DNA of 39,927 nucleotides from a bacterium (lineage in GTDB: Bacteria; Myxococcota_A; Bradymonadia; UBA7976; UBA1532), in assembly GCA_030427205.1 (NCBI GenBank), contig JAUHXC010000011.1, forward strand, positions 236,016 to 275,942. Direction: 5' to 3'. A model generated the notes under the pieces. The model did not search any database, was not told the DNA's origin, and saw only the letters and a list, made by a program, of their open reading frames with translations. Positions 1,849 to 28,859 of the stretch are shown here, in pieces; position 1 is the stretch's first letter; every line of letters begins with the position of its first letter. The position numbers and the translations under genes are program-made.

Positions 1849-1852
1849 CTAA

Positions 1853-1876
1853 GCCCCCGATTTCGGGGGCTTTTTT
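1853..1876. terminator. Rho-independent terminator (GCCCCCG-ATTT-CGGGGGC-TTTTTT). Bidirectional: it also ends the convergent integrase gene.
   Basis: Perfect 7-bp GC stem, 4-nt loop and T6 run read directly. The integrase stop codon lies inside the T-run on the other strand. Confidence 0.75.
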
Positions 1877-3756: not shown

Positions 3757-3767
3757 GCTCTCCACGA

Positions 3768-4871: not shown

Positions 4872-4914
4872 CGTACGCGCGGCATGATTGGCGCGATATT
4901 CCGCCAAATGTAAC

Positions 4915-5478: not shown

Positions 5479-6088
5479 CCCCGCAGCCGAGCGAATGCTG
5501 GGGGTCGTGCTTCGGTTGGAGTCCGCGCCCTGGCCGGGCGCGCTGTCGGCTTACGGAGCCAACCTGCTCGCGCTGTCGACCCGGTGTGAGCGGCCAGCGG
5601 CGAAGGCCGAGATCTATCGATGGTTCATGCGCGAGGGCGGCGGGGCGCTCGTATCTCGGCATGAAGAACGCTGCGCTGATCTCCGCGACGCCTTCCACGA
5701 GATGGTCGCCAAGATCCCGTGGATCCTGCTCCACTTCCGGGCGGGCCTCGACGCGGACCGGCGGCCGAACCTCAAGTCGATGCTGGTCAGGTGGATCGGC
5801 TGGCGGGCCAACGGCCTGTACGAGTCGCGGCAGCGGCACGCCTCCCGGCGGGCACCGTATCGGCTCAGTGATCAGCTCGCCCCCGGTGGGCCCGACATCG
5901 CTGCCCAACTCGGTGAAGTCCTCGCCCTCCTCGATGGGGCCGACCCGGTCACCCGCGCCCTGCGCCTCGTCGGCCTCGGCCACACGATCGCCGGTGCGGC
6001 CCGCCTCACGGGCGTCAGCCGCCAGAAGATCTATCGAGCCCGCTCGGCCTTGCAGGCGAAGGTCGAGGACGAGCCCGATCGGGACTGA
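5464..6088 (+). CDS. Sigma-70 region-4-like HTH protein (ECF-sigma-like or LuxR-type), paralog of 236..865.
   Basis: …RALRLVGLGHTIAGAARLTGVSRQKIYRARSALQAKVE is a region-4-type HTH. Collinear homology with 236..865. Translationally coupled to the upstream gene. Confidence 0.65.
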
Positions 6089-6102: not shown

Positions 6103-6957
6103 TCACTCGTCTCCATCAGCCGATTCGTCGAACGCCTCTGGCATCGGCCGGTTCCACGTCTCCAACACGAGATCGCTGACTTTCACCGCGACCGCTCCTG
6201 GGAACGGGCCCTTCGCCTGCCTGATCATCCGAGAGACGCTGCTCCTCGACGTTGGCCACTTCGTGTCCTGCGTGATCTCGGCGATCTTCGGCGCGCCGAG
6301 CCCCTTGCCCCACATGCCGAGGCAGGGGCGCATCGCGATCGTCTCCCGCATGCGGCCGACCTTGGCGAGCCGGCCGTAAGCGTTCTCGGGTTCGGCTGGA
6401 TCCATCGACGCGCTGAGCCGGGGCACGTAGCGGATGAGGTCGGCCCGTGATTTGGCTCGGTTCATCCGCTGAAGTCGAGGCCCTGCCCCTTCACCAGCGA
6501 GGCTGAGCTTCGCCAAGTGTCGCCAAGGCGCGACGAGAGGAGCAGCTTCCGCTTCGAGTGGTGGACGCTCCGCAAGGCGTTCGATGAGTTCCCGCGAGAT
6601 CTCCCGGTACGCACCCGGCCCGTCCTTGTCTACGACCTTGGCGGCCAGCTTCATGGTCCCGCGGGCGATCGCGTCGAGGATCATCACGTCGCAGTGGGTG
6701 AGGTCCGCGATGATCTCGATGCCGCATCGCGTGATCATGTCCTCGGTGATGCCCTGAATCATGCGGGACAGGTCGGTGGTCCCGTAGGTTTTGACCGGAT
6801 GCGGAAGCGGTCGCAGACACTTCGCGCAGATCTTCATCTTCGATCCGTAGCGCAGGTGCGTTTTCTTGCAGATGCGGCAGGACAGCTTTGGATCGAGATC
6901 CTTGCGCCGTTTGAGGTCCCCGCGCTTCTTCTTCGTCTTGCTGTCTGGCGGCTTCAT
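6103..6957 (-). CDS. Hypothetical protein with an N-terminal zinc-ribbon-like Cys cluster (CRICKK…CAKC). Lower GC than the surroundings.
   Basis: 284-aa ORF. CxxC…CxxC near the N-terminus. Last gene of the long minus-strand gene train. Confidence 0.55.
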   Translation of the reverse strand: MKPPDSKTKKKRGDLKRRKDLDPKLSCRICKKTHLRYGSKMKICAKCLRPLPHPVKTYGTTDLSRMIQGITEDMITRCGIEIIADLTHCDVMILDAIARGTMKLAAKVVDKDGPGAYREISRELIERLAERPPLEAEAAPLVAPWRHLAKLSLAGEGAGPRLQRMNRAKSRADLIRYVPRLSASMDPAEPENAYGRLAKVGRMRETIAMRPCLGMWGKGLGAPKIAEITQDTKWPTSRSSVSRMIRQAKGPFPGAVAVKVSDLVLETWNRPMPEAFDESADGDE

Positions 6958-7181
6958 AGGGTAGATCGTAGGGCGGCAGATCGGGCCTTTTCCGCATATT
7001 TTGCAGGCTGTTACGCGATTGACGGCACCCTGACGTCTACGGCGCCCTATGTGCCCGAATAGGATCTACCCTGTGGATCCCTCCTGACGAGACACCGAAC
7101 CCTCGGGTCGAGCCGAAATCAGGGCCTCTTCAGAACTTCGCGTGCACGAACCCGTTCGCGGCCACCGGGCTGTGGGTCCGA

Positions 7182-7964
7182 TCAGGCGATCTTGGCGATG
7201 GTGAGGTAGCTGCGGGCGAGCCCGCCGAGGCTGCCGAGCAGCTCGGTGCCGACGCCGGTGGGGTTGGTGACGAGAACCTTGAGTTGGTGCCCGACGGCGA
7301 GGGTGACGAGGTCGAGAACGTGGCCGCCGTTGCTGCTCTGTGCCGCCTGACTCTTGCTGGTCCAGGTGGCGCCGTTGTCGGTGCTGATCTGGACCTCGAG
7401 CACCATCGGGGTCGAGGCGGTGCTGACCGATGCGTGGATCTGGTAGTCGCCGGCCTCGTCGGCGGGGCAGGTGAAGACGCCGGTCGCGGTGTCGTAGCCG
7501 GCGGCGACGTTCACGTCGGCGACGTCGCAGATCAGATCGGTCGAGTCGTTGTTGTTGATGTTGATCGGCAGCGCCCCGACCGACGCGCGAACCCGCACGG
7601 CCGCGGCGGCGGGCTCACCGGCCGGGCCGGCGGGGCCCTGGCCGCTCGCGGAGTGCCAGACGATGCGGTCGGGCAAGGGCTCCTCGACGAACTCCAGGGT
7701 CACCACGCCGTCGACGACGCCCAGGCTGCACACCTGGAACGTCTGGAGCGGCCGGTTCGACGTCCGGCCGATGACCCGGGTCGAGCCCGGGTGCAGGATC
7801 ACCTCGTCGGCGGGGTCCTCGTTGAACCGGATCTGGGTGATGGGCTGGTCGGCTTCGAGGTGAGCGATCAGGCCCAGGTAGAACTTGCGGGGGCCCGCCT
7901 CCTCCTTCACTTCGGGGTAGCCCATGCGCGAGGTGGCGATGCGGTTGTGCACGTTGGATGGCAT
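7182..7964 (-). CDS. Hypothetical protein with a short collagen-like GPAGPAGEP stretch and a C-terminal jelly-roll-like (C1q/TNF-like or tail-fibre-like) region. Tentative.
   Basis: ATG at 7964 with GGAGA RBS. The composition of the C-terminal 150 aa (…NINNNDSTDL…GATWTSKSQAAQSSNG…) resembles C1q-like domains. Similarity not verifiable here. Confidence 0.5.
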   Translation of the reverse strand: MPSNVHNRIATSRMGYPEVKEEAGPRKFYLGLIAHLEADQPITQIRFNEDPADEVILHPGSTRVIGRTSNRPLQTFQVCSLGVVDGVVTLEFVEEPLPDRIVWHSASGQGPAGPAGEPAAAAVRVRASVGALPININNNDSTDLICDVADVNVAAGYDTATGVFTCPADEAGDYQIHASVSTASTPMVLEVQISTDNGATWTSKSQAAQSSNGGHVLDLVTLAVGHQLKVLVTNPTGVGTELLGSLGGLARSYLTIAKIA

Positions 7965-7981
7965 CGGAATCTCTCCAGGTG

Positions 7982-8950
7982 TCAGACCACCCCGGCGTGA
8001 GCCAGGTGGCGATCGATGCGGCTGGTGACCTTGGTCTGGACCCGGGTCCAGGCTTTGGCGTCGGCGCCGCGGTTGTAGTAGCGGCGGAACCGGTTGGGGC
8101 CGGTGTGCCACAGGCGAACGCCACGGGCGGCGTCGCGGACGGTGCCCCCGCGCTTGCGCACGAGGCGCCAGAGCTGGGCGTAGTAGTCGATGGGGACGGC
8201 GATCTCTTCGGTCGCCGACCAGTCCCACGGCTGCCAATCGGCCGGGATGGGCGGCGCCTTCAAGCCGAGGTTGTCGAGGATGGCCAACTCGCGGCCCGCG
8301 TCTCGGTTCCACTGAAAGACGCCCCACGCAGTGATGAGCGGTGCGTCGCCTCGGGGTGCGTCCACCGGCGTGCAGAGCCGTCGCCGGTTGATCTTGGTGG
8401 TCCTGCAGGCCGCGTTGAAGTTGCGGGCCGGGACCGCGAAGGTCCCCCCTTCGCCCTCGGTCTTGGCCAGATGAACCATCGTCTTGACGAAGGACTCGCC
8501 GAGACCGGTCTGGCGGGAGACGTCGGCGATCGGCGCGAGCGCAGCGCCCGGCCTCGAAGCGTTGCGCACGCGCTCTGCCTTGAAGCCAGCTGGGCGTGCC
8601 TTGAAGCGCAGGCTGTAGATCCGGTTGGTGAGGGCCAACAGGCGCTTCGAGTCGAGCCCATCTACCCGCACGACGCCCTCGGGGCCCGAGGCGATCCCGA
8701 CGAGCGTCGGCAAGCCGGACGGCCGTCGACGCTTGTGCTTCGGGCCGTAGGGCTCGCTGGCATCGGGCGTGTAGCGGATCCGGCCGGGCACGGTCCGGGT
8801 CGGCGAGGTGGGCGGGCTCGGTATGAGCCGCGGTTCTGGCGTGGAAGCAGGACCAGCGACGGCCCGCCCGAGGGCCACAGCCCCCGCAGCGATCCCGGCG
8901 GCGGTCGCGATGACCACCCGTAGCCCATCTCGCCCATTCAGACCGGACAT
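7982..8950 (-). CDS. Secreted or membrane-anchored hypothetical protein (N-terminal hydrophobic segment).
   Basis: ATG at 8950 with GGGGAG RBS. N-terminal LRVVIATAAGIAAGAVALGRAVA. No recognisable catalytic motif. Confidence 0.55.
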   Translation of the reverse strand: MSGLNGRDGLRVVIATAAGIAAGAVALGRAVAGPASTPEPRLIPSPPTSPTRTVPGRIRYTPDASEPYGPKHKRRRPSGLPTLVGIASGPEGVVRVDGLDSKRLLALTNRIYSLRFKARPAGFKAERVRNASRPGAALAPIADVSRQTGLGESFVKTMVHLAKTEGEGGTFAVPARNFNAACRTTKINRRRLCTPVDAPRGDAPLITAWGVFQWNRDAGRELAILDNLGLKAPPIPADWQPWDWSATEEIAVPIDYYAQLWRLVRKRGGTVRDAARGVRLWHTGPNRFRRYYNRGADAKAWTRVQTKVTSRIDRHLAHAGVV

Positions 8951-9294
8951 GGGCTCCCCTGCGGGATCGGCGTGCTCTCCCCCGGCTCGACCCAGGCCAC
9001 CTCCAGCGTGAAGCGGGCCTTCTTCTGCGTCTGAGCCAGAAAGACCAGCCGCTCCCCGGGCAGAGTCACCGGCAGCGCGATCATCTGCGCCGCAGGCGCC
9101 AGACCCGCCTCCCACAGCACGGTCTTGCCCGCCTGCCCCCGCAGTTCGAGCCGCCCGGCCGGTGCCGCGTCGGTGCTCGTCGAGGCCCGCGCCGACCAGT
9201 GGTAGCCGGTCGACGACACCGGGACGACGCCGACCTCGACCCAATGGTCGGCCCCCGGCGCCCCGACCCGGTCCGCGGAGATGTGCGTGCGCAC
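8938..9294 (-). CDS. Small hypothetical protein (118 aa, GTG start).
   Basis: Fits the co-directional gene train with 1-nt spacing to the upstream gene. Weak support otherwise. Confidence 0.35.
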   Translation of the reverse strand: MRTHISADRVGAPGADHWVEVGVVPVSSTGYHWSARASTSTDAAPAGRLELRGQAGKTVLWEAGLAPAAQMIALPVTLPGERLVFLAQTQKKARFTLEVAWVEPGESTPIPQGSPCPV

Positions 9295-9295
9295 G

Positions 9296-9697
9296 TCAGC
9301 ACTCCGGGTCGGCGAAGATGGTCAGCTCGACCGTGTACGGCAGCCGCCCTTCGAGCACCTGCACCACGAAGTCGAACTTCGAGCCCGCCTTGAGCTTCAT
9401 CCCGGTGAAAGCGCACGGGTCGCCCGGCCGCTCGTCGGGCGGCACCAGATGCGAGAGCGGCGGCAGCAACTCCGTGCTCTCGTCGTAGGGCGACCAGTAT
9501 GGGCTGCCATAGCCACCCGTCGACTTGAGCCCGAGCCGACACACCCGCAGCCCGGCCGGGTCGTTGGTGTACGCCCGGACGGTGCGGATGGTCATGTCGA
9601 ACGGCACCGTAAACAGCGCCTTGCCGTCGCCGTTGGCGTCGCTGGCGATCACCAGCGGGTGGGAGACGCGCGGGGGTGGGGTGTACTCGACGGTCAT
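9296..9697 (-). CDS. Hypothetical protein (133 aa).
   Basis: ATG with GGAG upstream. Coding-like composition. No family recognised. Confidence 0.5.
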   Translation of the reverse strand: MTVEYTPPPRVSHPLVIASDANGDGKALFTVPFDMTIRTVRAYTNDPAGLRVCRLGLKSTGGYGSPYWSPYDESTELLPPLSHLVPPDERPGDPCAFTGMKLKAGSKFDFVVQVLEGRLPYTVELTIFADPEC

Positions 9698-9747
9698 GGC
9701 GACAGCTCCGATGCCTTCGACAGACGATCAGCGGTGAACCACCGGGC

Positions 9748-10671
9748 TCAGGTCCCGGTGGGCTTCTGGTAGTGCTTGCCGCGCAGGCTGATGCGGATGT
9801 TGTAGGCCTTGGTCAGCTCCAGCTCGGGGTCGGGGAACTCGAGCTGCATCTCGTGCCCCTTCTCGCCGCCCTTGAGGCTGAACAGCGGCGTCGACGACCG
9901 GAACGGCGGGCCAGAGAAGCGCACCCCCAGCTCGTTGCCCCCGCCGGCGGCCGTCAGCACCCCCGTCGTCGGCGGGCACTCGGCGATCCGGGCGAGGCTG
10001 ATCATGCTCGACCCGTTGCGATCGCCCCAGCGCACCAGCGCCTCACCGATGCCCCGCAGGTCAGCGGCGTTGGGCTCGCTGCGGTCGGCCGCCTGCACCT
10101 CGATCTCGATGCCGTGGCCGATGAACGTATTGCCGTCGGGCAGCGCGCCGCCGGTGATCAGGTTGGTGCGGTGGCGGTCGATGGGCACGTCGCTGCCGTA
10201 GGACGAACCCGGGTCGTCGATGCCCTTGTGAAACGCCTTGAGGCTGCGGACGGCCTGCCCGCTCATCGAGCGGATGCTGTCGCTGAGCACGCCCTGCTTG
10301 AGCGTCAGCACGGCATAGAGCGGGGTCGGGGTCTGCACCCGGCCGACGATGTCGTTGCGGGTCACCGGCGAGCGCCGGGGCAACTTGTACGCCTTGCATG
10401 CCTGCGTGCGCGCCTGCCGCCGCTGCAAGAGCCGGCGGATGACCTGACTCATCTGCTGCCGGCCCTTGTTGGCGCGCTTGAGCTTGCGGGTGACGAGCAC
10501 GCCTCGGTTGCCGGGCAGCTTGCGCAGCATCGGGGCGAACTTCTCGGCCAGATCACCCAGGTCTTCGCTGTCGGCGTCGAGCTGGTCCATCAGCCGTTCG
10601 AGGCGGTCGATATCAGCCTGATCGGCCTCGACGATGAGCGTCAGGTCCGGGTCATAGAGATCGGGGTCCAT
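9748..10671 (-). CDS. Hypothetical protein (307 aa) with an acidic N-terminus.
   Basis: ATG at 10671 with AAGGGAGA RBS. No recognisable motifs. Confidence 0.55.
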   Translation of the reverse strand: MDPDLYDPDLTLIVEADQADIDRLERLMDQLDADSEDLGDLAEKFAPMLRKLPGNRGVLVTRKLKRANKGRQQMSQVIRRLLQRRQARTQACKAYKLPRRSPVTRNDIVGRVQTPTPLYAVLTLKQGVLSDSIRSMSGQAVRSLKAFHKGIDDPGSSYGSDVPIDRHRTNLITGGALPDGNTFIGHGIEIEVQAADRSEPNAADLRGIGEALVRWGDRNGSSMISLARIAECPPTTGVLTAAGGGNELGVRFSGPPFRSSTPLFSLKGGEKGHEMQLEFPDPELELTKAYNIRISLRGKHYQKPTGT

Positions 10672-10711
10672 GGGTCTCTCCCTTCGGTGTGGGTCATGAG
10701 CCGCGGATGGC

Positions 10712-11365
10712 TCAGTACAGGTCCTCGTCGTCGTCCAGCTCGATGAGCGCGTCGCCCTCGACTTCGAGTGCGCCGACGGTCATCGCCTCCTCCTCGGTCT
10801 CGCGGTGGGCCTCGGCCAGATTCTTGAGCTTGTCGACCGCCCCGCGGATGTCGTCGTCGATCTGGTGGTCGAGCTGCTCGAGGTCGTCGACGCCCAGCTC
10901 GCCCGGCTTCTTGCGGGTGATCGCGCCCAGGCCCTGCGTCGCCCCGCTGTCGGGCCCGCTCTCCATGAAGTAGATGATCGCCAGGGTCCACGCGGAGACC
11001 CCCGACGCTTCGAGCCCGGCCGCCTCACGGTGCTTGCCGTGGTGGCGCGCGCGGCGGGCGAGCACCCCCGTGATGACGGTGAACGCCACCATCACCATGC
11101 CCCGCGAGGTGGGGCTCAGCTTGGCCCACCACTCGGCGCTGCCTCGACGGGCCATGCCTTCGAGCAGCCCGAGCGCCGCGGCCGAGAGACCCGCGCCGGC
11201 GAGCTTGAAGCCGATGCGGGCGGCCTCGCCCATGTCATTGCCATTGGCGACCACCAGACGGGCGGTCTCCTCCTTCTTCTTCGCCGGCGCCTTGTTCTTG
11301 GGCCGTTCCAACGTGCGCGACATCGCTGTCTCCTCGTCGCTGGGGTTGACGATGGTGGTGAACAT
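10712..11365 (-). CDS. Small membrane protein (2-3 TM segments) with an acidic C-terminal tail.
   Basis: Its ATG at 11365-11363 shares one nucleotide with the stop of the giant gene (TGATG). Hydrophobic segments AARIGFKLAGAGLSAAALGLL, MVMVAFTVITGVLA, AWTLAIIYFM. Confidence 0.6.
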   Translation of the reverse strand: MFTTIVNPSDEETAMSRTLERPKNKAPAKKKEETARLVVANGNDMGEAARIGFKLAGAGLSAAALGLLEGMARRGSAEWWAKLSPTSRGMVMVAFTVITGVLARRARHHGKHREAAGLEASGVSAWTLAIIYFMESGPDSGATQGLGAITRKKPGELGVDDLEQLDHQIDDDIRGAVDKLKNLAEAHRETEEEAMTVGALEVEGDALIELDDDEDLY

Positions 11366-23300: not shown

Positions 23301-24174
23301 CGAAGCGCCGTACGTCGAACCAGTACAGCGCCAGCCGCCGGGGGTCGTCGTCGGTGAGGGCCTTCGCGGTGGGATTGACGGGCACGAACTCGGCGCGCCG
23401 GTCGAGCAGTCGCGGCCGGAACCATGCGTGCTCGGCGCCAACGGTCCACGGTCCGATCCGACCGCCGCGGCCGTCGCCGACGTGCACCCGGTCATCGCGG
23501 TGCACCTCGAGCACGACGTAGGTGTCGAAGTCGGCGGTCACCAGCCGATCGCCGTCCTGCAGGCCTTCCCATCCGCGCCAGCGCCACGACGGGCGACCGC
23601 TCGACTTGCCCTCGATGAACGGCACCCGGACGCCGACCTTGAACGCCCAATCGACGACCGCCTTGGCGATGTGGCCGATCGCGCTGTCGCGCTTGAGGCC
23701 AAACGCCTTCAGCGCCTTCGCCTGGGTGAGCGCCCGCTTGCTCTCCTGAACCAGCGCCAAGAACCGCCGACCCCGCGCCGGCAGGTCGTCGAGCGGCACC
23801 GGAGAGCCCACGGGTTCAGCCGACTGGCTCGGCCGCCGCGGAGCGGGGCTCTTCGTCGCCGCCGGCTTCCTTGTCGTGCGGGTCTTCTTCGCCGCCGGCT
23901 TCTTCGCTGCGCGGGTCTTCTTCGCCGTGCTCGGCGCCACCTCCCGCGCGCAGCTCGGCACCGCCTGATCGGTCTTCCGATACCGTCCGGCGCCGACTTC
24001 CTCGATCGCCCCGCGGGCCACCATCTGCGACGCCATCCGCCGGGTATGCCCCGCGTACCGGTGGCACGCGCTCGCTTGCAGCTCATCGAGGCTGAACACC
24101 TCGGCGACCCGGCTCAGCACCTCGCGCTGGCGCACGGTCGGCGCCCGCTTCGCGGTCTTCGATCGACGGCTCAT
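11365..24174 (-). CDS. Giant multidomain protein (about 4269 aa). N-terminal basic, histone-H1-like tract; repeated approx 100-aa modules (…VVEVH…GPW…AWFRP…); three modules ending in FRATG-x3-(L/V)PGM; N6-adenine DNA methyltransferase domain; C-terminal SNF2-family helicase. Methylase-helicase type protein as found in phage and plasmid anti-restriction proteins.
   Basis: MTase motif I EPSAGVGRF and motif IV VIVSNPPYG. Helicase motifs I AAYGVGVGKTFTA, II LLIVDEAQNY, III LLSATPAKNSPLELYNLW, VI QRNGRAVRQG. Likely ATG at 24174 overlapping the stop of the upstream gene (ATGA). The long antisense ORFs on the plus strand are interpreted as shadows of this gene. Confidence 0.85.
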   Translation of the reverse strand: MSRRSKTAKRAPTVRQREVLSRVAEVFSLDELQASACHRYAGHTRRMASQMVARGAIEEVGAGRYRKTDQAVPSCAREVAPSTAKKTRAAKKPAAKKTRTTRKPAATKSPAPRRPSQSAEPVGSPVPLDDLPARGRRFLALVQESKRALTQAKALKAFGLKRDSAIGHIAKAVVDWAFKVGVRVPFIEGKSSGRPSWRWRGWEGLQDGDRLVTADFDTYVVLEVHRDDRVHVGDGRGGRIGPWTVGAEHAWFRPRLLDRRAEFVPVNPTAKALTDDDPRRLALYWFDVRRFGGWLDAELRRLMIAFADLNFATESDLTERLGWSVEAIDRALKRLRGLKRKGMPLPVKQSRLRGERTWEWMGLKPPEPVAEAETATSESLTVALGDWFVTEILNRFEVVEVHDDGLMSIVDRRGERHGPWRVDGPTGRAWFRPKRRGERTVLIPMNAVARAVGPAASQRLAAHWPAAAAFDHVLDGDQRRFLIAVAEAGTVRVSALNERCGWTPAQIKRLVERTVQMRETHDMPIPFEATTVDGERAWRWLDAAQVRAAKGRRWADERIARKEQAQGRHDAARTVHTFAREQLAQPMATAADVQLYIAARDRAAEVMAESPPPTIPAVDEPAAPVPDEIYGAPPHPGPAPSIPPHAHPVSTLSEVGKVRRLFVAAPDGPRWALTATGEQAQFEGAVFRDQSGQRWTAARVVNLVNLGWYAAYVDNTVPLRPRQTAPKAANAYEFRSVVHPSDGTKVHIAPDGGTVVLRAGKRWYVLRLGAGRTWTIHAGPEKFATARRAAVEATGQPPPSAEIGPLASIPRTGEIDDAGRAASAVTHRMMRKLLAVAKVGDRIDLSPLADAPVVARLAKAEVISDRWWQRKPAWTLENNGQTGTDREIGQSVGRLVTALFEPPTNEGSGFDLRWLKYRLRDHGCPVFHAMTATLRVVTCHNGGGETTVTINLKDDGWYWSRAWSGDFDGVGPFDRASAMLASLVERLPLDGAAFRATGADGVPGMAAESAADPTFVLVGCVKSKVASGPVAAQALYRGALWNLRRRYAEARGLPWAIVSAGLGVVGPDEPVEPYDKRAQDLTGEQRAAWVAQVSPALARLAGRGAVVEVIASRAYVELLAKPAQALGLTLLAPLAGKGIGERKKWLADRIAALTANDGPAAQPRSVFDVQAAMKTWTRSGTKPPVYTSPDKRVRFSKSGKRGAYRVEQSVGGRWKIVGPDHRSFAAARRAALELYDQPAATPAFRATGEVGLPGMPKGDQQTLRVDVGEPPAEVAEAGHTAWMIREAAARLNRPTRGVWVVCGTAVYPIGALPDGLELHLPVEFVDVNPAGQVEAVEADPGFLLAVEPINTAMRRYRLRLDEDQRARLLDAIRISRGEGKRGLDRGGLRRRLTSGFRRERVESGFEVWTDKHRTMSWVAPRGATNDQVIDAFFAETARRLVEDLPDGTREKAEDVLNRAFRMARRRGGPRPRLVRGPAEAPKTPKTPKPAQPKPRPPAPVAVQPSAPTREPAPTPTAPKTPEGFELIAGRHTRDGHDIWTVRLIERLPRERYKALTVLAKQAADPDSPVPSGYFSRYRRGGAVPGFVFGSEAEARRFLAAVNGSADTPFRATGSDGLPGMASGGAESEWPEAPETPAARTRGNILAVQLAHALERSGTTPTAAQVQRMRQYSGWGGLSIDKVRDDWPAGIPLPNKRALVHEYYTPWKVCADITAAVRRLVKPGAIQALEPSAGVGRFVHVAGFPDWQWTAVELAPLSALILRQTATPSTAVHVGSFESWVQANPDARFDVIVSNPPYGPRGEQITEDKDRRFRVKAAYQYFILRGMALLRPGGVGAFLVPGGFLTGSSNGKLRRRVDERADLLAAFRLPSGLFPGARLTLDVVFLRARSGAKASPDDLFVSGRYFDDHPSHVLGEVKPSGRWGGEEVIGEYAGLPDFTPRVVDEAEPPADTPMPSVDAYADAIATPSFRTLRALMRDVDEAHNRGKRFQGGAVPLTDADGWRAAVEDIVRSPRTKKVRRELLREALEGLKATIRKAQRYEQTGQFERDGLTREMVWDYVARLRRGRDAVVAGNDRIQAQRGRRKARKVDVRAPQFGARLAHMQRPPLADLVSVHEWGAMVLGDDPVRAHLPDLEQAGFLRVVAVSPKAVHLRLTDAGRKVLRETPRSVRPVDDRPDALRGYEPDGTMAWESSVADFCASNAEDRHLCAKVQALAPGASLDVGGGAAPALQLRRRPAKGWPARPSRASTPVVEAEVVRSTPGLLGRAMHGLDWSTPQEVFAELVADGIHPSEAAQAVATAHMEKTGGGPGDVKRFAEALRFEMAQPVEPVQSGGEPTVPPGRGVFAWRAGSSDVIPLFDASTLQPQALNLDGAMQVLAGFHRGPWVIEVREAYPAPHMVTERVQEAFERHARRHGVEVAEVRFGVSERDDRGLLPPVEPIALPAPKMPPIDESRPRQSKAAAQRRAVRFAGTQKTAPLLTTVWHTQGRAIGRSMVRLVEIPTDHRGEQQWLDRKGKLAEGWPTADQNMTVDLLQRIEEMEPAVVATADVKALRDALLNKALTSDPIWRVHDGQLYVEPGSAANKRLQRHIGPARGANLLTKLDRAYLRPMFAKAKGSVTVRVLGRDTERGIEWGNHLLVLDRADGERHMVAPMRFSDVEQLVEVAGRPIISRRSIESDDEGPAKPQPKKTLAPGFANLEMDSGRAWKPRKPRKAGLPAGLRDVEMERQVAPDLAAAIERAKFFTDPNDPVLRGIRVGGGLVLATDGQNLIELAHGAEDDPMRVVDPDGRALDVDYPDPAELLRPADPVATVDPAPLGALFNRLRKMTTSPAALEVDGVRLLLDGTLLRGARVAPGSASGQWSFELPRLRMALNGARTGRLLLGAGTAPTVIERADGERHLIAPVADPSCAVCLPTEPDPPPAPPKGPDEGQLAAVLSQRVAQYEASDTTRRMMLHAELAGALDAFAEIFGRRLATLEAPVGIPELALDVSDARQLLTMHPAGVPLDRVANVDDLLRRGWRLDANRLLPRDDYLSGNLWTRLDRLEALPSNYRHVADSQRKELEDAIGDVSFADIADRISLRDGWLPLGVIGAFLGSFRRGEKTPVAIDRKDGVVQFRGEKYSYDDITDRFANTSSIRLILGYINHDEYVFRPKKPKSEDINKVRRAKADEFERRFKAFLSTRPDIRDRVAEAYRRAHRGFVQRRYSGDPLRLARWGAQITPHPHQNAGARRAVDQRGMVAAYGVGVGKTFTACATVALARQNVGTRRPVILVPNSLVSKWQRDIHKALPDYAVVTIGEKATPGRHGGLKYGPDNKDDREVKWRRFAAGLYDLALVTPAAFMRTGITADEFERLAAGATELQRSVRLAQRTARNRTNPSERQQALLEQGVRAFLAQMMELPPSWKADDIRWSELGVDLLIVDEAQNYKGLHSPENREGSIPRFMGQSSASKRAWNLDARARDVRARDGFVVLLSATPAKNSPLELYNLWSYVNGELWRDHGIHDPEAFISRFLTIEPRLVIDATMEASERPAVTGFQRLDELKAILLRWGEFIQPPDIGLEVPEPTTELVEVDMDEAQEDKYETYVTRIEAELDAMRRGDKSNKVLGLLARMGLVAVHAEMDRGLDYKSAQGYRPNSPKFDAIADYIAGNTFCGHIVFLQAIAGHRWLKETLVKRGLKASRIGVLNGQLAKSSDARQRIADRFNEGKLDVVIANSIAYEGLDLQTRTCAIHHADLPWEPATLNQRNGRAVRQGNTLSTVAIRYYFSRRSMDGLRFNLIQGKQGWMGALLEGSDAIANPGADLELGPDEVLLLISRTPDETRKRLDKLRAAAEAKRRADEAARAIKLLESGASQLVEARDAVDPERAERLLAGADAAFDAVARIDRDIWPWAGLLAAARKAGAHDILARQGTPPLFPGSWLRWDDDWYEVGRFGWQGTHRMIWLRLAGDASWEGHKVANVARDKTDDDVSPTRPADVADNWTDGVERLVKSTIANPYRGWQAMGWSHAAPAWLETAWPRVEATAKAEIASIRASYFGSNYGPAETRFPFDLNGEVYIHRRGGKPPEGAVLLPPTQAGWARWLRLAANDEHKYALRDDTSKWWWGRPLRPGMQRTRTNPSHRRPQSRAMAPDPYGDGMQLPPQTPIGSYLVLGIDHAQRLVWLDQTRRMSAAQALQKKVPPDIPLVVIVKVENNGMGPTRHRKLVGGDAVHVRATELVQDAGIVIAADGTNAVAAVLTARDLTGAYAANERRVPAGVPRTVIGTVRHRYRSAS
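19315..19352. repeat. 38-bp palindromic element, copy 2 (CATTCCGGGCAAC-N12-GTTGCCCGGAATG), in frame in the giant gene, encoding FRATGSDGLPGM.
   Basis: Read directly. 13-14 bp perfect arms. Confidence 0.8.
20410..20447. repeat. 38-bp palindromic element, copy 3, in frame in the giant gene, encoding FRATGEVGLPGM.
   Basis: Read directly. Perfect arms. Confidence 0.8.
21160..21197. repeat. 38-bp palindromic element, copy 4, in frame in the giant gene, encoding FRATGADGVPGM.
   Basis: Read directly. One arm mismatch (GTG for TTG), the same as in copy 1. Confidence 0.8.
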
Positions 24175-24745
24175 CGCAGGATCCCGTGGGCATTGATGGT
24201 GAAGTTGCTCGGCCCGCGCTCGATCTGCCCGGCCACCAGCCGCGGCCCCGGCCGGTCGAACGGATGGCGCCACCATGCGTCGGTCGAGCCCTTGCGGGTG
24301 TCGTAGACGATCGCGTCGATCACGCCCGCCGGGCTCTCGGGCGCCACCCCGCCCTCGGCGACCAGCCACAGCTCGTCCATGACCGCCGACGTCACGAGCC
24401 ACACCGGCCCACCGCGCGGCTCGACCTCGACCCCGCCCCGCAGCTCGATGCGCACCAGCCGGCCCAGCTCGACCAGATCGCCCGGCGCCCCGTCCGGCCG
24501 CCGCACCGCGCGCTCACCGCCCGGCTCCAAGCCCCAATGCAGCAACCGCCACGTCTCCTCGACCGGCTGGCGCACCTCGACCGACTCGACCGCCGCCTCG
24601 ATCCCGGCGACCGCCGCCCGGACTCCGGCCCCCACGAGCCGCAGCCCATCGCCGCGCTCGACCCGCACCGCGCCCTCGGGCACCAGCTCAGTGCCGTCGA
24701 CGAGGCGCAGCCGGACCAGCTCGCCGATATCGGTCCAGCGCGCCA
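24171..24745 (-). CDS. Hypothetical protein (191 aa), translationally coupled to the giant gene.
   Basis: ATG at 24745 overlaps the upstream stop (ATGA). Its stop overlaps the giant-gene ATG (ATGA). The longer N-terminal extension in the ORF track is Arg/Gly-rich and overlaps a better ORF, so it was discarded. Confidence 0.5.
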
Positions 24746-25243
24746 TCAGCTCAGCCGCCGCCGCAGCAACTCGACGCCGGTTGCGACCCCGAGCGCGGCC
24801 AGCAGCCACCCCCACGACGGACCGTCGTCGGCGACCGCGTCCACCAGCTTGCCGAGCTTGCGCCGTACCGCCGGGTCGTCGGTCTTGCGCGCCTCCTCGG
24901 CCACTGTCTGCGCGAACAGCCGCCGTGCCTCGACCAGCCGGGCCTCCTCGTTCGAGATCCACGCCCCGATCGTCGCGACGGTCACCACGACAGCCCCGCC
25001 GACCACGAGGTGCGGCAGCGCCCCGAGCGGCACCCTGTTCGGCAGCTTGTTGACCCCGCCGAGGAAGTGCTCGATGACCTCGTAGATCCAGCCGCGCACC
25101 TTGAGCACGAGCTTGCGCTTGGTCTCGATCGCCGCCGAGTCGACCTTCCCGTGCCGCGCCAACTGCAACCAGCCGACCGCCACCCGATCGAGCCGCTGCG
25201 CCCACCCCCACGCCTGCCGGCGCCACGAGTCCTGCCAGCTCAC
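24746..25243 (-). CDS. Small membrane protein (165 aa, two hydrophobic segments).
   Basis: ATGA overlap with the upstream gene. Hydrophobic segments PHLVVGGAVVVTVATIGAWI and WGWLLAALGVATGV. Confidence 0.55.
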   Translation of the reverse strand: MSWQDSWRRQAWGWAQRLDRVAVGWLQLARHGKVDSAAIETKRKLVLKVRGWIYEVIEHFLGGVNKLPNRVPLGALPHLVVGGAVVVTVATIGAWISNEEARLVEARRLFAQTVAEEARKTDDPAVRRKLGKLVDAVADDGPSWGWLLAALGVATGVELLRRRLS

Positions 25244-25890
25244 TTGATCACGCGCTGCGCCGCCTTGGCGGCCTTCGCCGCGTAAGCCACGGTGCCCGCC
25301 GCCAGCAGTCCGCCGCCGGCCATCAGCAGCTTGCGGCGCTTCTCGGCCTTCGCCTTGTTGAGCCGTCGCCGGACCAGCGCCTGCTGATTGCGCAGATCGA
25401 CGATCTTCTGCTCCAGCTCGGCCATCTCCTGGCGCCGCCGGCTCTCAGCCTGTCGCTGCCGCGACCGCTCGCGGATCTTCTCCTCGCGCTGCCGCTCCCG
25501 CTCTCTCGCCCGGCGCTCTCGCTCCAGCTCGCTCTGGAGCTTGTTCGCCCGGCTGCGCTCCCGCTGCGCGCTCTGCTGCGCCTGCTTCGACTTGCGCCGC
25601 GAGGGCCCCGTCAGCTCCTTCAGGATCGCCTTGCCGCCGTCGATGATGTCCGAGATGAACCCGACCTCGCCGTCGTCGAACCCGTCGTCATCGAGATCGA
25701 AGTCGTCCAGCTCGATGCCGGCCAGGTCGTCGTCGTCGAGCCAATCGACCCCCGACGCGCCGACGTGCTCCAACTCGCCGAGATCGCCCTCGGGCTCGTC
25801 GAGCACCTCGTCGTACAGCTCGTCCAGCCGCCCGTCGCCGACGTGGTTGAGCGCCCCCAGATCATCGTGGCAGTCGCAATCGCGCTTCAT
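25240..25890 (-). CDS. Acidic / charged coiled-coil protein with a C-terminal transmembrane anchor (tail-anchored).
   Basis: ATG at 25890 with AGGAG 8 nt upstream. Asp/Glu-rich N-terminal half, an R/E-rich helical region, C-terminal LLMAGGGLLAAGTVAYAA. Confidence 0.55.
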   Translation of the reverse strand: MKRDCDCHDDLGALNHVGDGRLDELYDEVLDEPEGDLGELEHVGASGVDWLDDDDLAGIELDDFDLDDDGFDDGEVGFISDIIDGGKAILKELTGPSRRKSKQAQQSAQRERSRANKLQSELERERRARERERQREEKIRERSRQRQAESRRRQEMAELEQKIVDLRNQQALVRRRLNKAKAEKRRKLLMAGGGLLAAGTVAYAAKAAKAAQRVIK

Positions 25891-25901
25891 CTCAGCCGCT
25901 C

Positions 25902-26408
25902 CTATCGAATGGTCAGGCCGCGCCGCATGGCGTCCGCCGGCGACTGCCCGAAGGTGATCGAGGGGTGCACCGTCTCGGCGTCGATCCACGCCCCGCCGAG
26001 GTGAACCTGCGTCCAGATGTGGAAGGCTCGCCCCGGCGTCCGCACGCCGATGTCGACGTGGTAGCGTCCCGCCGAATCCAGCCGCAGCAGCGCCCCCCGG
26101 GCGGGCAGCGCGACGGTCATGAACAGCGCCAGCAGCAGCGTGTGCTGGTCATCGCAGTCGCCCATCAGCCGCCGAATCGTCGTCGCCGGGGTCTGGATCT
26201 GCTCGCCCAGCTCGGGCTGGAAGACGATCCGCTGGTGCACGAATCCCCACAGCGCGCGGGCCGTCTCGTCCCGCTGGTTGCCGTCGACGCCCGGGATGAC
26301 CTCGGCGAGCACGTCGCGCCACATGGGGTGGAGCGCATACCGCCGAGCCAGCGCACGGCAGCGGCGGCGGGTCAGGTCGGGGCTTCGTCCGGGGAGTCGC
26401 CAGTACAT
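25902..26408 (-). CDS. Transglutaminase-like cysteine peptidase superfamily protein (tentative).
   Basis: Motif IRRLMGDCDDQHTLLLALF (core-type Cys) followed by downstream His (YHVD) and Asp (WIDAE) candidates. 168 aa. The 28-bp conserved motif lies 11 nt upstream of its ATG. Confidence 0.5.
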   Translation of the reverse strand: MYWRLPGRSPDLTRRRCRALARRYALHPMWRDVLAEVIPGVDGNQRDETARALWGFVHQRIVFQPELGEQIQTPATTIRRLMGDCDDQHTLLLALFMTVALPARGALLRLDSAGRYHVDIGVRTPGRAFHIWTQVHLGGAWIDAETVHPSITFGQSPADAMRRGLTIR

Positions 26409-26418
26409 GTGGCGAGCC

Positions 26419-26446
26419 TACGGACGGGAATCGATACGCGGACCAG
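26419..26446 (-). promoter_or_regulatory. Conserved 28-bp upstream motif, copy 2 (TACGGACGGGAATCGATACGCGGACCAG), 11 nt upstream of the ATG at 26408.
   Basis: 25/28 identical to copy 1. Same distance to the start codon as copy 1. Confidence 0.45.
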
Positions 26447-26482
26447 ACCAAAAATCGGGGGTCCGCGATTTTTCTCGGCGGG

Positions 26483-27268
26483 CTACTTCTTGGTGAACCG
26501 CTCGGCGGTCTTGCCCAGCACGTCGAGCGCCTGATCCATCTGGAGGATCGCGTCCAGCGGCGAGAACTCGTTGTCGTCGGCCCGCTGCTTGAGGTCGGCG
26601 GCGATGCCTTTCGTGCGCATCACCTCGGCCTGCAACTCGCTGAGCTGGTCTTCGAGCTGGATCACCCGCTCGTCCCGCGCCTCGAGCCGCGAGCTGAGCG
26701 AGGCCATCGTCACCTCGGCCTTGTGCGCCTGCTCCTTGGCCGCGTCGAGCTGCTCTCGCATCAGCTTCACCTCGGTCTCGGCCCGCTCGCGGATCGCGAG
26801 CAGCATCGACTCGTGGTGCTTGCGCTCGGCCTCCAACTGCCCGTTGTGCGCCTTGCGCTCGGCCTCCAACTGCTCGTCGAAGCGCTTGCGCTCCTCCATC
26901 ATGCTCTTCTCGACTCGGGCGTGCGCCGTCATCGCGTCCCGCGCCTGCTGCTGATAGACGCCCATGATCTGGAACGCCGGGGTCGCCGAGCTGCTGCTGC
27001 GCCGGCTCGGGCGCAGATTCCAGTCCTTGCGGGTGATCATCCGCTTCGTACGCGGGTGCCGGGCCAGCACCCGATACCGCCCGGGGCGGATGATCCGCTC
27101 CGACAGCTCGCGCACGCCCTCGGTCACCAGCAACTGGATGAGCGTGTCCTCGTGGTCGTACGCCGGGCGCCAGTCGTGGCCGTCCAGCTCGTAGACGTCC
27201 AGCAGCGCGCAGGCCACCTCGGTGTCGAGCAGCGGGGCGTACTGCGGTTCGATGTCTTCGGTCATCAT
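26483..27268 (-). CDS. Coiled-coil hypothetical protein (261 aa). First gene of the minus-strand train.
   Basis: ATGATG start with GGAGG RBS. Long heptad-like charged region (…EERKRFDEQLEAERKAHNGQLEAERKHHE…). Confidence 0.55.
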   Translation of the reverse strand: MMTEDIEPQYAPLLDTEVACALLDVYELDGHDWRPAYDHEDTLIQLLVTEGVRELSERIIRPGRYRVLARHPRTKRMITRKDWNLRPSRRSSSSATPAFQIMGVYQQQARDAMTAHARVEKSMMEERKRFDEQLEAERKAHNGQLEAERKHHESMLLAIRERAETEVKLMREQLDAAKEQAHKAEVTMASLSSRLEARDERVIQLEDQLSELQAEVMRTKGIAADLKQRADDNEFSPLDAILQMDQALDVLGKTAERFTKK

Positions 27269-27302: not shown

Positions 27303-27330
27303 TACGGACGCGAATCGAGACGCGGACCAG
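27303..27330 (-). promoter_or_regulatory. Conserved 28-bp upstream motif, copy 3 (TACGGACGCGAATCGAGACGCGGACCAG), 35 nt upstream of the ATG at 27268.
   Basis: 25-26/28 identical to the other copies. Confidence 0.45.
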
Positions 27331-27389
27331 CACAAAATCAGCGCAAATCGACGATTCTCGGGCGGTTCGGCCCGAACGCCTCAGCCAAG

Positions 27390-28854: not shown

Positions 28855-28859
28855 TACGG

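What the first reader, a model, noticed from the sequence alone, without database searches (positions are those of the whole stretch)
6103..27268. An approx 21 kb uninterrupted co-directional gene train with pervasive start/stop overlaps and almost no recognisable protein families
Thirteen consecutive minus-strand genes run from 27268 down to 6103. Junctions are ATGA or TGATG overlaps or gaps of less than 50 nt. Apart from the MTase/helicase domains and a tentative transglutaminase-like protease, the products are small membrane, tail-anchored, coiled-coil, secreted and C1q-like proteins with no assignable function. No relaxase, T4SS ATPase, capsid or terminase was recognised. The system therefore matches neither a standard conjugative element nor a standard prophage. 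It may be a novel defence/anti-defence or DNA-transfer-associated module carried by the integrase-bearing element.
Basis: inference. Interest (0 to 1): 0.65.

Follow-up and report, generated by a model that had tools for sequence, protein, structure and literature searches.

The report
Virus-like gene module with giant anti-restriction gene
The 21-kb gene train is real and is a rare, deeply conserved module of an integrating mobile element in myxobacteria-like bacteria; it most likely builds a tailless, membrane-containing virus-like particle, and a giant DarB-like methylase-helicase gene has been added to it.

Summary
Thirteen co-directional minus-strand genes run from 27268 to 6103. Ten of the 12 junctions are overlaps or gaps of 50 nt or less; the other two gaps are 74 and 224 nt.

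Pfam, PHROGs, NCBIfam and PADLOC recognise only three products: the giant (N6-adenine methylase plus SNF2 helicase, DarB-like), g2 (transglutaminase-like cysteine protease with an invariant Cys-His-Asp triad) and g12 (collagen stalk plus C1q head).

The train is conserved as a unit in about ten metagenome or MAG contigs, at least one labelled Myxococcales. It is very rare: 18 g8 homologues among 5.8 billion proteins, one species among 185,579 reference genomes, and none in IMG/VR.

Distant relatives (g8 about 30% identical) keep the same small-gene order but lack the giant. Its slot holds a 190-250-aa very basic protein. The small genes are therefore the core and the giant is an accessory.

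My best reading (about 45%) is the structural module of a new temperate, non-tailed, ATPase-less virus-like element that carries a polyvalent anti-restriction protein. The fold evidence is suggestive, not decisive.

The parts
26483..27268 (-). g1: 261-aa coiled-coil protein, first gene of the train. It has an SD sequence (GGAGGA) and a 33-nt internal repeat.
   Evidence: Positional equivalents of 233-316 aa occur in L005, L007, L009, L011, L012 and L014. Sequence similarity is weak (27-32% in the closer relatives).
25902..26408 (-). g2: 168-aa transglutaminase-like (papain-fold) cysteine protease. It is the most conserved small protein of the train and a candidate maturation or processing protease.
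   Evidence: Pfam Transglut_core 1.9e-7, 31.7 bits against a cut-off of 23. C85/H130/D143 are invariant in 10 members down to 38% identity. It is present in every train examined.
25240..25890 (-). g3: 216-aa protein with an acidic N-terminus, a basic coiled coil and a C-terminal hydrophobic anchor.
   Evidence: Sequence inspection. Homologues of 36-38% identity in L005 and L007.
24746..25243 (-). g4: 165-aa membrane protein (one hydrophobic span, residues 71-98). Its GTG start overlaps the g3 stop.
   Evidence: 59-62% identical in L005, L006 and L007.
24171..24746 (-). g5: 191-aa soluble protein. The conserved core is the C-terminal ~130 aa.
   Evidence: 12 homologues in 5.8e9 proteins. Orthologues lie directly upstream of the giant or of its small substitute in all loci.
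11365..24174 (-). Giant 4269-aa polyvalent protein, an accessory insert in the train. Order of regions: conserved N-terminal wHTH-like ~80 aa; a Lys/Ala-rich basic tract (pI 11.4); repeated small modules; DUF6884 (1016-1147); N6-adenine methylase (1637-1915, with the NPPY motif); an unknown middle region; SNF2/DEAD helicase (3025-3800); and a conserved C-terminal ~120 aa.
   Evidence: Pfam. PHROG DarB-like antirestriction 3e-82 and phrog_11801 2e-160. tblastn to DarB-like proteins of Bordetella phage PHB04, Bcep22-like phages and plasmid SNF2 proteins. The N- and C-termini are conserved among the giants of L001, L004, L005 and L006.
10712..11365 (-). g7: 217-aa protein with Gly/Ala-rich hydrophobic segments and an acidic C-terminus (probable membrane protein).
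   Evidence: Orthologues in L001, L004, L005, L006, L011 and L014.
9748..10671 (-). g8: 307-aa protein and candidate major capsid protein. It has an acidic helix (pI 4.1), a very basic helix (pI 12.0) and a highly conserved C-terminal single jelly-roll domain (residues ~105-307).
9296..9697 (-). g9: 133-aa protein that appears beta-rich from its sequence, ending in an invariant Cys. Candidate minor capsid or vertex protein.
   Evidence: Conserved in L001, L004, L011 and L014 at 33-66% identity. No fold was obtained. No PDB or hhalign match.
8938..9294 (-). g10: 118-aa protein that appears beta-rich from its sequence. Candidate minor capsid or vertex protein.
   Evidence: Conserved in L001, L004 and L011. 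No match.
7982..8950 (-). g11: 322-aa protein with an N-terminal Gly/Ala-rich signal-anchor and a conserved C-terminal domain. Invariant residues include E165, ITAWG-FQWNRDA and DAAR-VRLWH. Suspected muralytic (lysozyme/transglycosylase-like) enzyme; this is by eye only.
   Evidence: Alignment A4. No Pfam, PHROG or PDB sequence match. The function is an inference.
7182..7964 (-). g12: 260-aa trimeric fibre or spike. It has a conserved N-terminal domain, a collagen-like GXY stalk (short here, 8-12 triplets in relatives) and a C-terminal C1q/TNF-like head.
   Evidence: The profile hits C1q domains (cerebellin 8e-7, adiponectin 2e-4, caprin-2 2e-4) and collagen. Relatives hit Pfam Collagen, C1q and BclA_C, and tail-fibre PHROGs.
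6103..6957 (-). g13: 284-aa basic protein with an N-terminal CxxC...CxxC zinc ribbon, separated from g12 by 224 nt. Only the zinc-ribbon part is conserved.
   Evidence: The N-terminal 70 aa match 112-116-aa genes at the end of the trains of L004 and L011. L001 shows no g13 match and has an integrase straight after g12.
27303..27333 (-). Copy 1 of a 31-nt motif (core GTCCGCGTMTCGATTC...TCCGTA), 35 nt upstream of the g1 start. Candidate promoter or operator. Copies 2 and 3 are at 26419-26449 (upstream of g2) and 3768-3798 (upstream of the Xis-like ORF).
   Evidence: (3 exact core matches; 0.14 expected by chance). Not found in the related loci.
5213..6088 (+). Divergent 291-aa regulator with a C-terminal HTH. 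It is distantly ECF-sigma-like and is a paralogue of the gene at 89-865.
   Evidence: Pfam HTH_29/HTH_23. The L004 homologue passes Sigma70_ECF (28.4 bits against a cut-off of 21.1). Repeat D1.
4605..4907 (-). Small XRE/Cro-CI-type HTH gene (candidate lysogeny or regulation switch).
   Evidence: tblastn of the 84-aa HTH gene that precedes g1 in L007: 47% identity over 57 aa, E 1e-6, at 4632-4790. L007 Pfam HTH_26/HTH_31.
2818..3765 (-). Excisionase-like HTH_17 protein. Its N-terminal module and FRATGxxGxPGM linker are shared with the giant. The 3' ~340 nt overlap the integrase ORF and are probably not translated in this frame.
   Evidence: Pfam HTH_17 and PHROG 66 excisionase. Repeats D3/D9..
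1875..3158 (-). Tyrosine integrase (427 aa).
   Evidence: Pfam Phage_integrase 2.8e-19. 33-36% identical to the integrases next to the train in L001.
1808..1880 (+). tRNA/tmRNA-like 3' fragment (T-arm plus acceptor 3' strand plus CCA, 1821-1849) followed by a GC hairpin and T-run. It abuts the integrase stop and is a probable att junction.
   Evidence: Sequence. Weak tmRNA 3'-end match. No complete tRNA or tmRNA. No second copy in the window.

Best explanation
The train is the morphogenetic (structural) module of a previously undescribed, rare, temperate virus-like element of Myxococcota-type bacteria. The element makes a tailless, probably membrane-containing particle.

Proposed parts (inferred unless marked shown):
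- g8 supplies a single jelly-roll capsid protein (fold shown by prediction). Its acidic and basic N-terminal helices face the interior.
- g9 and g10 are minor or vertex proteins.
- g12 is a trimeric collagen-stalk/C1q-head receptor-binding fibre (domains shown).
- g11 is a membrane-anchored wall-degrading enzyme used at entry or exit.
- g2 is an active papain-fold protease that processes virion proteins (catalytic triad shown).
- g1 (coiled coil), g3, g4 and g7 are scaffold or membrane proteins.
- The slot between g5 and g7 ancestrally encodes a small, very basic protein (pI 10.5-12) that condenses the DNA.

In the window's lineage this slot is occupied by a 4269-aa polyvalent DarB-like methylase-helicase. 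It keeps a basic N-terminal tract and a conserved C-terminal handle. I propose that it is packaged with the genome and delivered into the next host, where it protects the incoming DNA from restriction.

A tyrosine integrase, an excisionase-like protein, an XRE repressor and an ECF-like regulator provide lysogeny and control. A shared 31-nt motif precedes three transcription units. No packaging ATPase is needed if the genome is enclosed as a nucleoprotein, as in the archaeal Portogloboviridae.
For: 1. Synteny. The same order (coiled-coil, Transglut_core, two membrane proteins, g5, [giant or small basic protein], g7, g8, g9, g10, g11, g12, Zn-ribbon) recurs in L001-L007, L009, L011, L012/13 and L014. 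g8 identity falls to ~30% across these loci. Such order conservation at that divergence is typical of viral structural modules (established knowledge).

3. g12. It has collagen plus a C1q head. By my own knowledge this matches the architecture of the PRD1 P5 spike and of phage fibres.

4. g2. The catalytic triad is invariant.

5. Mobility. Integrases lie beside the train in three loci. There is a tRNA-like att fragment next to int. tRNA-Leu abuts the L011 train. The element is found in only 1 of 185,579 species genomes.

6. Polyvalent proteins. The giant is DarB-like. L014 carries a separate 1135-aa ddrB-ParB protein. Such proteins are delivered with DNA by phages or conjugative elements (PMC5512222).

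7. Precedent. SPV1 has an SJR MCP, an inner membrane, a nucleoprotein core, a ~20-kb circular genome, and no recognisable replication proteins or packaging ATPase (PMC8459092, PMC8812541).

8. Variable flank. The region upstream of g1 carries typical mobile-element cargo, for example an AAA_21 ATPase plus an HNH protein in L009.
Against: - No fold was obtained for g5, g9, g10 or g11.
- No replication initiator or packaging ATPase was found.
- There is no hit in IMG/VR or in GenBank phages. No circular or virome contig was seen.
- The second att copy was not found in the window, so the element's limits are unknown.
- The small basic protein and the giant are only positionally equivalent. HMM search shows no homology, and hhalign of the C-termini is collinear but weak (P 0.034).
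- All relatives come from MAGs or metagenomes, so there is no evidence of particles.
Confidence: 0.45

Rival explanations
1. The train is the cargo of an integrative island, a multi-gene anti-defence or defence module, and builds no particle. On this view the small proteins are membrane or periplasmic accessory factors of the methylase-helicase, or an independent conflict system.
For: The giant has MTase and SNF2 domains with partial matches to DrmD, BrxH and ZorD helicases. Neighbouring cargo in relatives includes an AAA_21 ATPase plus an HNH protein (L009). A PI-PLC / FGE-sulfatase / caspase-like trio lies next to g1 in the window and in L007.
Against: The small-gene train persists without the giant. 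There are no PADLOC hits for any small gene. The DrmD match covers about 115 aa at 71 bits against a cut-off of 610. The jelly-roll, collagen-C1q fibre and protease set is not typical of known defence systems.
Confidence: 0.17
2. The train encodes a novel envelope-spanning DNA- or protein-transfer (conjugation- or secretion-like) apparatus that exports the polyvalent protein with DNA.
For: About 40% of polyvalent proteins are in conjugative elements (PMC5512222). The train has several membrane proteins (g3, g4, g7) and a possible wall hydrolase, g11. A Replic_Relax gene lies near the L009 element.
Against: There is no VirB4/VirD4/FtsK-type ATPase, relaxase or pilin, and no Walker A motif outside the helicase. 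The Replic_Relax gene is outside the train, on the opposite strand, and seen in only one locus. A conserved jelly-roll protein and a C1q fibre are not known T4SS parts.
Confidence: 0.12
3. The train encodes a cellular, non-mobile structure, such as a surface nap or fibre, a spore-coat-like layer or a protein compartment. BclA is an example of a collagen-C1q surface protein. On this view the train merely lies in a variable genome region.
For: g12 relatives hit BclA_C and Collagen. L011 shows host-like genes (OmpA, a methyltransferase and a Ser/Thr kinase) beginning ~0.5 kb beyond the last train gene, with no integrase in the 6.6 kb fetched on that side. Jelly-rolls are common in cellular proteins (PMC8812541).
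Against: The distribution is extremely patchy. Integrases are adjacent in three loci, and tRNA adjacency is seen in L011. Polyvalent anti-restriction proteins are inserted in or beside the train. Lysogeny-type regulators are present.
Confidence: 0.1
4. The element is a satellite that hijacks a helper (tailed) phage. It contributes only decoration, fibre and anti-restriction proteins.
Against: Twelve conserved structural-looking genes are many for a satellite. No capsid-size redirecting, terminase small-subunit or portal-related genes were found. The tail-fibre PHROG hits may be largely driven by the collagen repeats (my assessment).
Confidence: 0.08

Closest known systems
Portogloboviridae (Sulfolobus polyhedral virus 1)
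   Different: The host is archaeal. There is no sequence similarity. SPV1 is not known to integrate and has no polyvalent giant, no collagen-C1q fibre and no transglutaminase-like protease. The similarity is at the level of fold and architecture only.
Helvetiavirae / Matsushitaviridae (Thermus phage P23-77 group) and DJR phages (Tectiviridae, Corticoviridae)
   Different: Those viruses have two SJR MCPs or a DJR MCP, plus an FtsK/HerA packaging ATPase. Neither was found here. g8 is a single ~200-aa jelly-roll, and no ATPase is present.
DarB of phage P1 and 'polyvalent proteins' (Iyer, Burroughs, Anand, de Souza, Aravind 2017, PMC5512222)
   Same: The giant combines an N6-adenine MTase, an SNF2 helicase and further modules in one polypeptide. 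PHROG labels it DarB-like antirestriction. It is 22-30% identical to DarB-like proteins of tailed phages.
   Different: It is twice the size of P1 DarB. It is embedded in a non-terminase, non-T4SS context. The paper states that phages with polyvalent proteins belong to the portal-terminase class, so this context would be a new one.
DISARM / BREX helicase-methylase defence systems
   Same: They contain SNF2-type helicase and N6-MTase domains.
   Different: Matches are restricted to the generic helicase C-terminal lobe and lie far below the family cut-offs. No DrmA/B/C, BrxA/B/C/L or PglZ partners are present.

Membership tests
Tailed prophage (Caudoviricetes) | Terminase large subunit, portal and HK97-fold major capsid protein | tested here: not met
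   No Pfam, PHROG or NCBIfam hit in any of the 13 products or in 55 relatives. g8 is a jelly-roll, not an HK97 fold.
T4SS integrative conjugative element | Relaxase, VirB4-type ATPase and type IV coupling protein | tested here: not met
   No such domains. No Walker A motif outside the giant's helicase.
Polyvalent / DarB-like anti-restriction proteins | Several conflict-related enzymatic domains (here N6-adenine MTase with NPPY, and an SNF2 helicase with motifs I-III) in one very large polypeptide | tested here: met
   Pfam Eco57I, N6_Mtase, SNF2-rel_dom, Helicase_C and DUF6884. PHROG 10089 DarB-like 3e-82. SNPPYG, GVGVGKT, DEAQ and SATP are visible in the sequence.
Polyvalent / DarB-like anti-restriction proteins | Packaged in the virion or transferred with DNA into the recipient, where it protects against restriction | not testable with these tools
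   Needs virion proteomics and restriction-evasion assays.
Portogloboviridae-like viruses | Single jelly-roll major capsid protein | tested here: inconclusive
Portogloboviridae-like viruses | Second SJR penton protein, inner membrane with subcapsomer proteins, and a nucleoprotein core | not tested
   g9 and g10 (appear beta-rich), g3/g4/g7 (hydrophobic segments) and the basic-protein slot are candidates only.
Bamfordvirae / Helvetiavirae (DJR or two-SJR viruses) | DJR MCP or two vertical SJR MCPs, plus an FtsK/HerA packaging ATPase | tested here: not met
   g8 has a single ~200-aa jelly-roll. There is no ATPase. g9 and g10 show no profile similarity to g8.
DISARM / BREX defence | Full-length DrmD or BrxH-type helicase with partner genes (DrmA/B/C, or BrxA/B/C/PglZ) | tested here: not met
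   NCBIfam DrmD scores 71 bits against a cut-off of 610 over 115 aa. No partner genes were found.
Transglutaminase-like cysteine proteases (g2) | Cys-His-Asp catalytic triad in the Transglut_core fold | tested here: met
   The Pfam hit is above the gathering score. C85, H130 and D143 are invariant.
C1q/TNF-like collagen-stalked fibres (g12) | GXY collagen repeats followed by a C1q-type jelly-roll head | tested here: met
   Profile against PDB: cerebellin 8e-7, adiponectin, caprin-2 and collagen peptides. GXY tracts of variable length are seen in alignment A5. Relatives hit Pfam Collagen, C1q and BclA_C.

The most novel reading that the evidence does not exclude
These elements would be the first bacterial representatives of a portoglobovirus-like grade of viruses: a single-jelly-roll capsid, an inner membrane, a genome enclosed as nucleoprotein and no packaging ATPase. 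They would be temperate in Myxococcota. Their DNA-condensing protein slot would have been expanded into a 3000-4900-aa polyvalent methylase-helicase that travels inside the particle. That would add a new virus family or higher taxon, give polyvalent proteins a third delivery context beside portal-terminase phages and T4SS elements, and provide a bacterial counterpart to the 'ancestral SJR virus' state postulated for Helvetiavirae (PMC8812541).
Probability: 0.3. Interest if true: 0.9.

Novelty: new variant of a known kind. Interest (0 to 1): 0.68.

Why it matters
If the reading is right, this is an unrecognised lineage of tailless bacterial viruses. It is invisible to current virus-detection pipelines: no IMG/VR hit and no PHROG hits except collagen-repeat/tail-fibre and unannotated PHROG matches in relatives of the train proteins.

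It would bear on how jelly-roll-capsid dsDNA viruses arose and on whether ATPase-less nucleoprotein packaging exists in bacteria. It would also show that giant DarB-like anti-restriction proteins are recruited by non-tailed elements.

Even if the particle hypothesis fails, the work defines a conserved 12-gene module of unknown machinery. The module has a clear core-versus-accessory structure and a tractable set of predictions.

Tried and rejected
- **Sequence searches for g8.** tblastn against GenBank phages found nothing. The IMG/VR scan found nothing.
- **Family libraries.** PHROG and Pfam scans of 41 g8-family members and 55 train proteins of relatives gave only collagen, C1q, coiled-coil and tail-fibre hits, plus one unidentified member matching the unannotated phrog_29525 at 5.8e-19.
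- **PDB sequence-profile searches.** Searches for g8, g9, g10 and g11 found nothing meaningful.
- **Profile comparison within the train.** hhalign of g9 against g8 and of g10 against g9 showed no relationship.
- **Small basic slot protein versus the giant.** HMM search was not significant. hhalign of the C-termini was collinear but weak (P 0.034).
- **att sites.** The search for att direct repeats and a second tRNA-fragment copy found none in the window.
- **The 38-nt palindrome.** A metagenome scan returned 121 hits, none coding FRATG...PGM, so these are chance hairpins and the palindrome is specific to this element.
- **Promoters, terminators and RNAs.** The sigma-70 promoter and terminator scans found nothing. 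Rfam found nothing at gathering thresholds.
- **Mx-alpha prophage idea.** The one paper checked mentions none of the six gene terms searched (helicase, methyltransferase, capsid, transglutaminase, integrase, terminase), so this was left untested.
- **g11 as a lytic transglycosylase.** This rests on motif resemblance by eye only and is not claimed.

Full report
**1. Observation**

The window is about 70% GC, so raw ORF lists are noisy. Third-position GC frame analysis and a start-codon scan define 13 consecutive minus-strand genes from 27268 to 6103.

Four junctions are ATGA, GTGA or TGATG overlaps, and one is a 13-nt overlap. Five junctions are gaps of 1-50 nt. Two are larger: 74 nt between g1 and g2, and 224 nt between g12 and g13. 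The description is therefore correct apart from those two junctions.

Four profile libraries (Pfam, PHROGs, NCBIfam, PADLOC) recognise only three products:
- the giant: DUF6884, Eco57I/N6_Mtase, SNF2/Helicase_C, and PHROG 'DarB-like antirestriction'
- g2: Transglut_core, above the Pfam cut-off
- g12: C1q, weakly

**2. Surroundings**

On the low-coordinate side of the train lie:
- a divergent HTH regulator at 5213-6088, whose relative in L004 passes the ECF-sigma model
- a small XRE-type HTH at about 4632-4790
- an HTH_17 excisionase-like ORF
- a tyrosine integrase at 1875-3158

Immediately beyond the integrase stop lies a tRNA/tmRNA-like 3' fragment (1821-1849) followed by a terminator hairpin. 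There is no complete tRNA or tmRNA gene. This is the signature of an att junction. A second copy was not found in the window, so the other boundary is unresolved.

On the high-coordinate side of g1 lie PI-PLC, FGE-sulfatase-domain and caspase-like genes. Beyond them are a second PI-PLC gene (34199-35257) and then CDF, methyltransferase and AcrB genes.

**3. Conservation**

g8 has only 18 homologues among 5.8 billion clustered proteins. It has 36 among 1.84 billion 50%-identity representatives. It has no hit in IMG/VR, and it occurs in a single species among 185,579 GTDB representatives. One relative is annotated as a Myxococcales MAG.

Wherever a contig is long enough, the whole train is syntenic.
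- L005 and L007 show g1-g5, with g2 80% identical; L005 continues through the giant to g7 and g8. L006 shows g4, g5, the giant and g7.
- L001-L003 and L004 show giant-g7-g8-g9-g10-g11-g12.
- Integrases lie next to the train in L001 (after g12) and in L009 (before g1).

**4. Core versus accessory**

Three distant g8 relatives (26-30% identity) sit in the same gene order: L011, L012/13 and L014. That order is a coiled-coil protein, a 168-172-aa Transglut_core protein, membrane proteins, a g5-like protein, g7, g8, g9, g10, g11, g12 and a Zn-ribbon gene. None of the three has a giant.

In the giant's slot they encode a 188-253-aa protein of pI 10.5-12. In L012 it is rich in Ala/Lys/Pro tracts.

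The giants of the window, L001, L005 and L006 share a conserved N-terminal ~80 aa followed by a basic low-complexity tract. These four and L004 also share a conserved C-terminal ~120 aa. The middle is variable.

Homology between the small basic proteins and the giant's termini is not demonstrated. HMM search is not significant, and profile-profile alignment is collinear with P 0.034.

L014 carries a separate 1135-aa ddrB-ParB protein divergently upstream. DarB-like helicase-methylases also occur in tailed phages and plasmids without these small genes. The association between giant and train is therefore facultative in both directions. The small-gene train is the conserved machine.

**5. What the small genes look like**

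*g8.* It has an acidic helix, a very basic helix (pI 12.0) and a strongly conserved C-terminal ~200 aa. With a 45-sequence alignment, AlphaFold2 models residues 101-307 at pLDDT 92.6 and pTM 0.89 as an eight-stranded beta-sandwich.

*g12.* It has a conserved N-terminal domain, a GXY collagen stalk of variable length and a C1q head. This is a trimeric fibre.

*g2.* It has an invariant Cys-His-Asp triad.

*Others.*
- g3, g4 and g7 carry hydrophobic segments.
- g11 has a Gly/Ala-rich signal anchor and an invariant Glu plus a W-G-x-F-Q-W-N motif. I suspect, but could not show, that it is muralytic.
- g9 and g10 are small and appear beta-rich from their sequences; their fold is unknown.
- No P-loop ATPase exists outside the giant's helicase.

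**6. Interpretation**

The gene set comprises a jelly-roll protein, two small proteins that appear beta-rich, a wall-enzyme candidate, a collagen-C1q fibre, a cysteine protease, a coiled-coil protein, several membrane proteins and a basic DNA-binding slot. Lysogeny genes and an att remnant lie alongside. This is best explained as the structural module of a temperate, tailless, membrane-containing virus-like element.

The nearest functional analogue is Portogloboviridae. That family has an SJR MCP, an inner membrane, a nucleoprotein core, no recognisable packaging ATPase or replication proteins, and a ~20-kb genome (PMC8459092, PMC8812541).

The giant fits the 'polyvalent protein' concept: multi-domain proteins that are packaged and delivered with the DNA to counter host defences (PMC5512222). 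That paper found them only in T4SS elements, portal-terminase phages and contexts without distinguishing features. A jelly-roll element would therefore be a new context.

Steps shown by tool results:
- gene structure
- conservation and rarity
- core/accessory split
- g8 fold
- g12 domains
- g2 triad
- giant's domains
- integrase/att adjacency

Steps inferred:
- particle formation
- roles of g1, g3-g5, g7 and g9-g11
- packaging of the giant
- nucleoprotein-type encapsidation

**7. Rivals**

- A particle-less defence or anti-defence island (0.17) is weakened by the giant-less trains and the lack of any defence-family hits.
- A novel conjugation or secretion apparatus (0.12) lacks any ATPase or relaxase.
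- A cellular surface or compartment structure (0.10) conflicts with the extreme patchiness and the integrase and tRNA contexts.
- A helper-dependent satellite (0.08) is possible but unsupported.

**8. Verdict**

The finding is real and more interesting than a generic 'hypothetical operon'. It is a rare, deeply conserved 12-gene module with a capsid-like jelly-roll protein, into which a 4269-aa DarB-like polyvalent protein has been inserted.

I rate it a new variant of a known kind (integrated virus-like elements with jelly-roll capsids). Interest is 0.68 and confidence in the specific mechanism is about 0.45.

Noticed in passing
window 3768-3798, 26419-26449, 27303-27333: A 31-nt motif (minus strand: ...GTCCGCGT(A/C)TCGATTCnCnTCCGTA) occurs three times. 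Each copy lies 3-35 nt upstream of a start codon: the Xis-like ORF, g2 and g1. The 16-nt core matches exactly 3 times against 0.14 expected. It is not found in related loci. It may be a promoter or operator shared by three transcription units, possibly read by the element's ECF-like regulator.
   Followed up: partly
window 3418-3455, 19315-19352, 20410-20449, 21160-21198: A 38-nt DNA palindrome (CATTCCGGGCAMCCCG-N6-CCGGTTGCCCGGAATG) lies in-frame in coding sequence, three times in the giant and once in the excisionase-like ORF. Each copy encodes the linker peptide FRATGxxG(L/V)PGM after a small module. The arms are nearly identical at the DNA level while the flanks diverge. It is absent from the giants of L001, L005 and L006. 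A metagenome scan gave only chance hairpins. It may be a recombination or domain-shuffling site, or a protein-binding site.
   Followed up: partly
window 1808-1880 and 1912-1946: A tRNA/tmRNA-like 3' fragment (T-arm plus acceptor plus CCA) with a terminator hairpin abuts the integrase stop. No full tRNA or tmRNA is present and no second copy lies in the window. Inside the last codons of the integrase there is a 12-nt tandem repeat, GAGGTGTTACCG x2.9, which may be arm-type binding sites.
   Followed up: partly
window 1-865 vs 4888-6088: Two paralogous plus-strand HTH/ECF-like genes (89-865 and 5213-6088) share 80% identity over 210 nt at 24-233 and 5250-5459. Each is preceded by an overlapping ORF in another frame. 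This suggests a second, related or degenerate element to the left of the att fragment (tandem integration).
   Followed up: no
window 27778-32693 and 34199-35257; L007 1121-6028: A trio of PI-PLC-like, FGE-sulfatase-domain and caspase-like proteins lies directly upstream of g1 in both the window and L007, at only 35-39% identity. The window has a second, inverted PI-PLC paralogue, and L001 has a PI-PLC gene beyond its integrases. The trio may be conserved cargo (a conflict or toxin module) rather than host flank.
   Followed up: partly
window 27414-27600: Degenerate ~24/48-nt periodic repeats (units like GGGCCWGGASCACCRCGAGG) lie in the 509-nt non-coding region upstream of g1. TRF does not call them. 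They could be iterons or a regulator-binding array.
   Followed up: no
L009 5386-8978; L014 343-4887: The flank upstream of g1 is variable and carries conflict-type cargo. In L009 it holds an integrase, then a 471-aa AAA_21/AAA_15 ATPase, then a 245-aa HNH protein (by my own recollection, a Septu-like pair). In L014 it holds a divergent operon with a 1135-aa ddrB-ParB polyvalent protein. A Replic_Relax gene lies beyond the L009 integrase.
   Followed up: no
window 2818-3158: The excisionase-like ORF overlaps the integrase ORF by ~340 nt in another frame, and its C-terminal third is Arg/Gly-rich junk-like sequence. This may be a frameshift, an Xis-Int fusion, or mis-extension of the ORF.
   Followed up: no
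L011 11148-11231: tRNA-Leu(CAA) lies ~190 nt beyond the last train gene of the giant-less relative, with its 3' end facing the element. This is consistent with tRNA-targeted integration.
   Followed up: partly
window 23843-23927 and 26818-26893: There are two 33-nt in-frame tandem repeats. One encodes the Lys/Ala-rich basic tract at the giant's N-terminus. The other encodes a duplicated LEAERK heptad-like segment in the g1 coiled coil.
   Followed up: no
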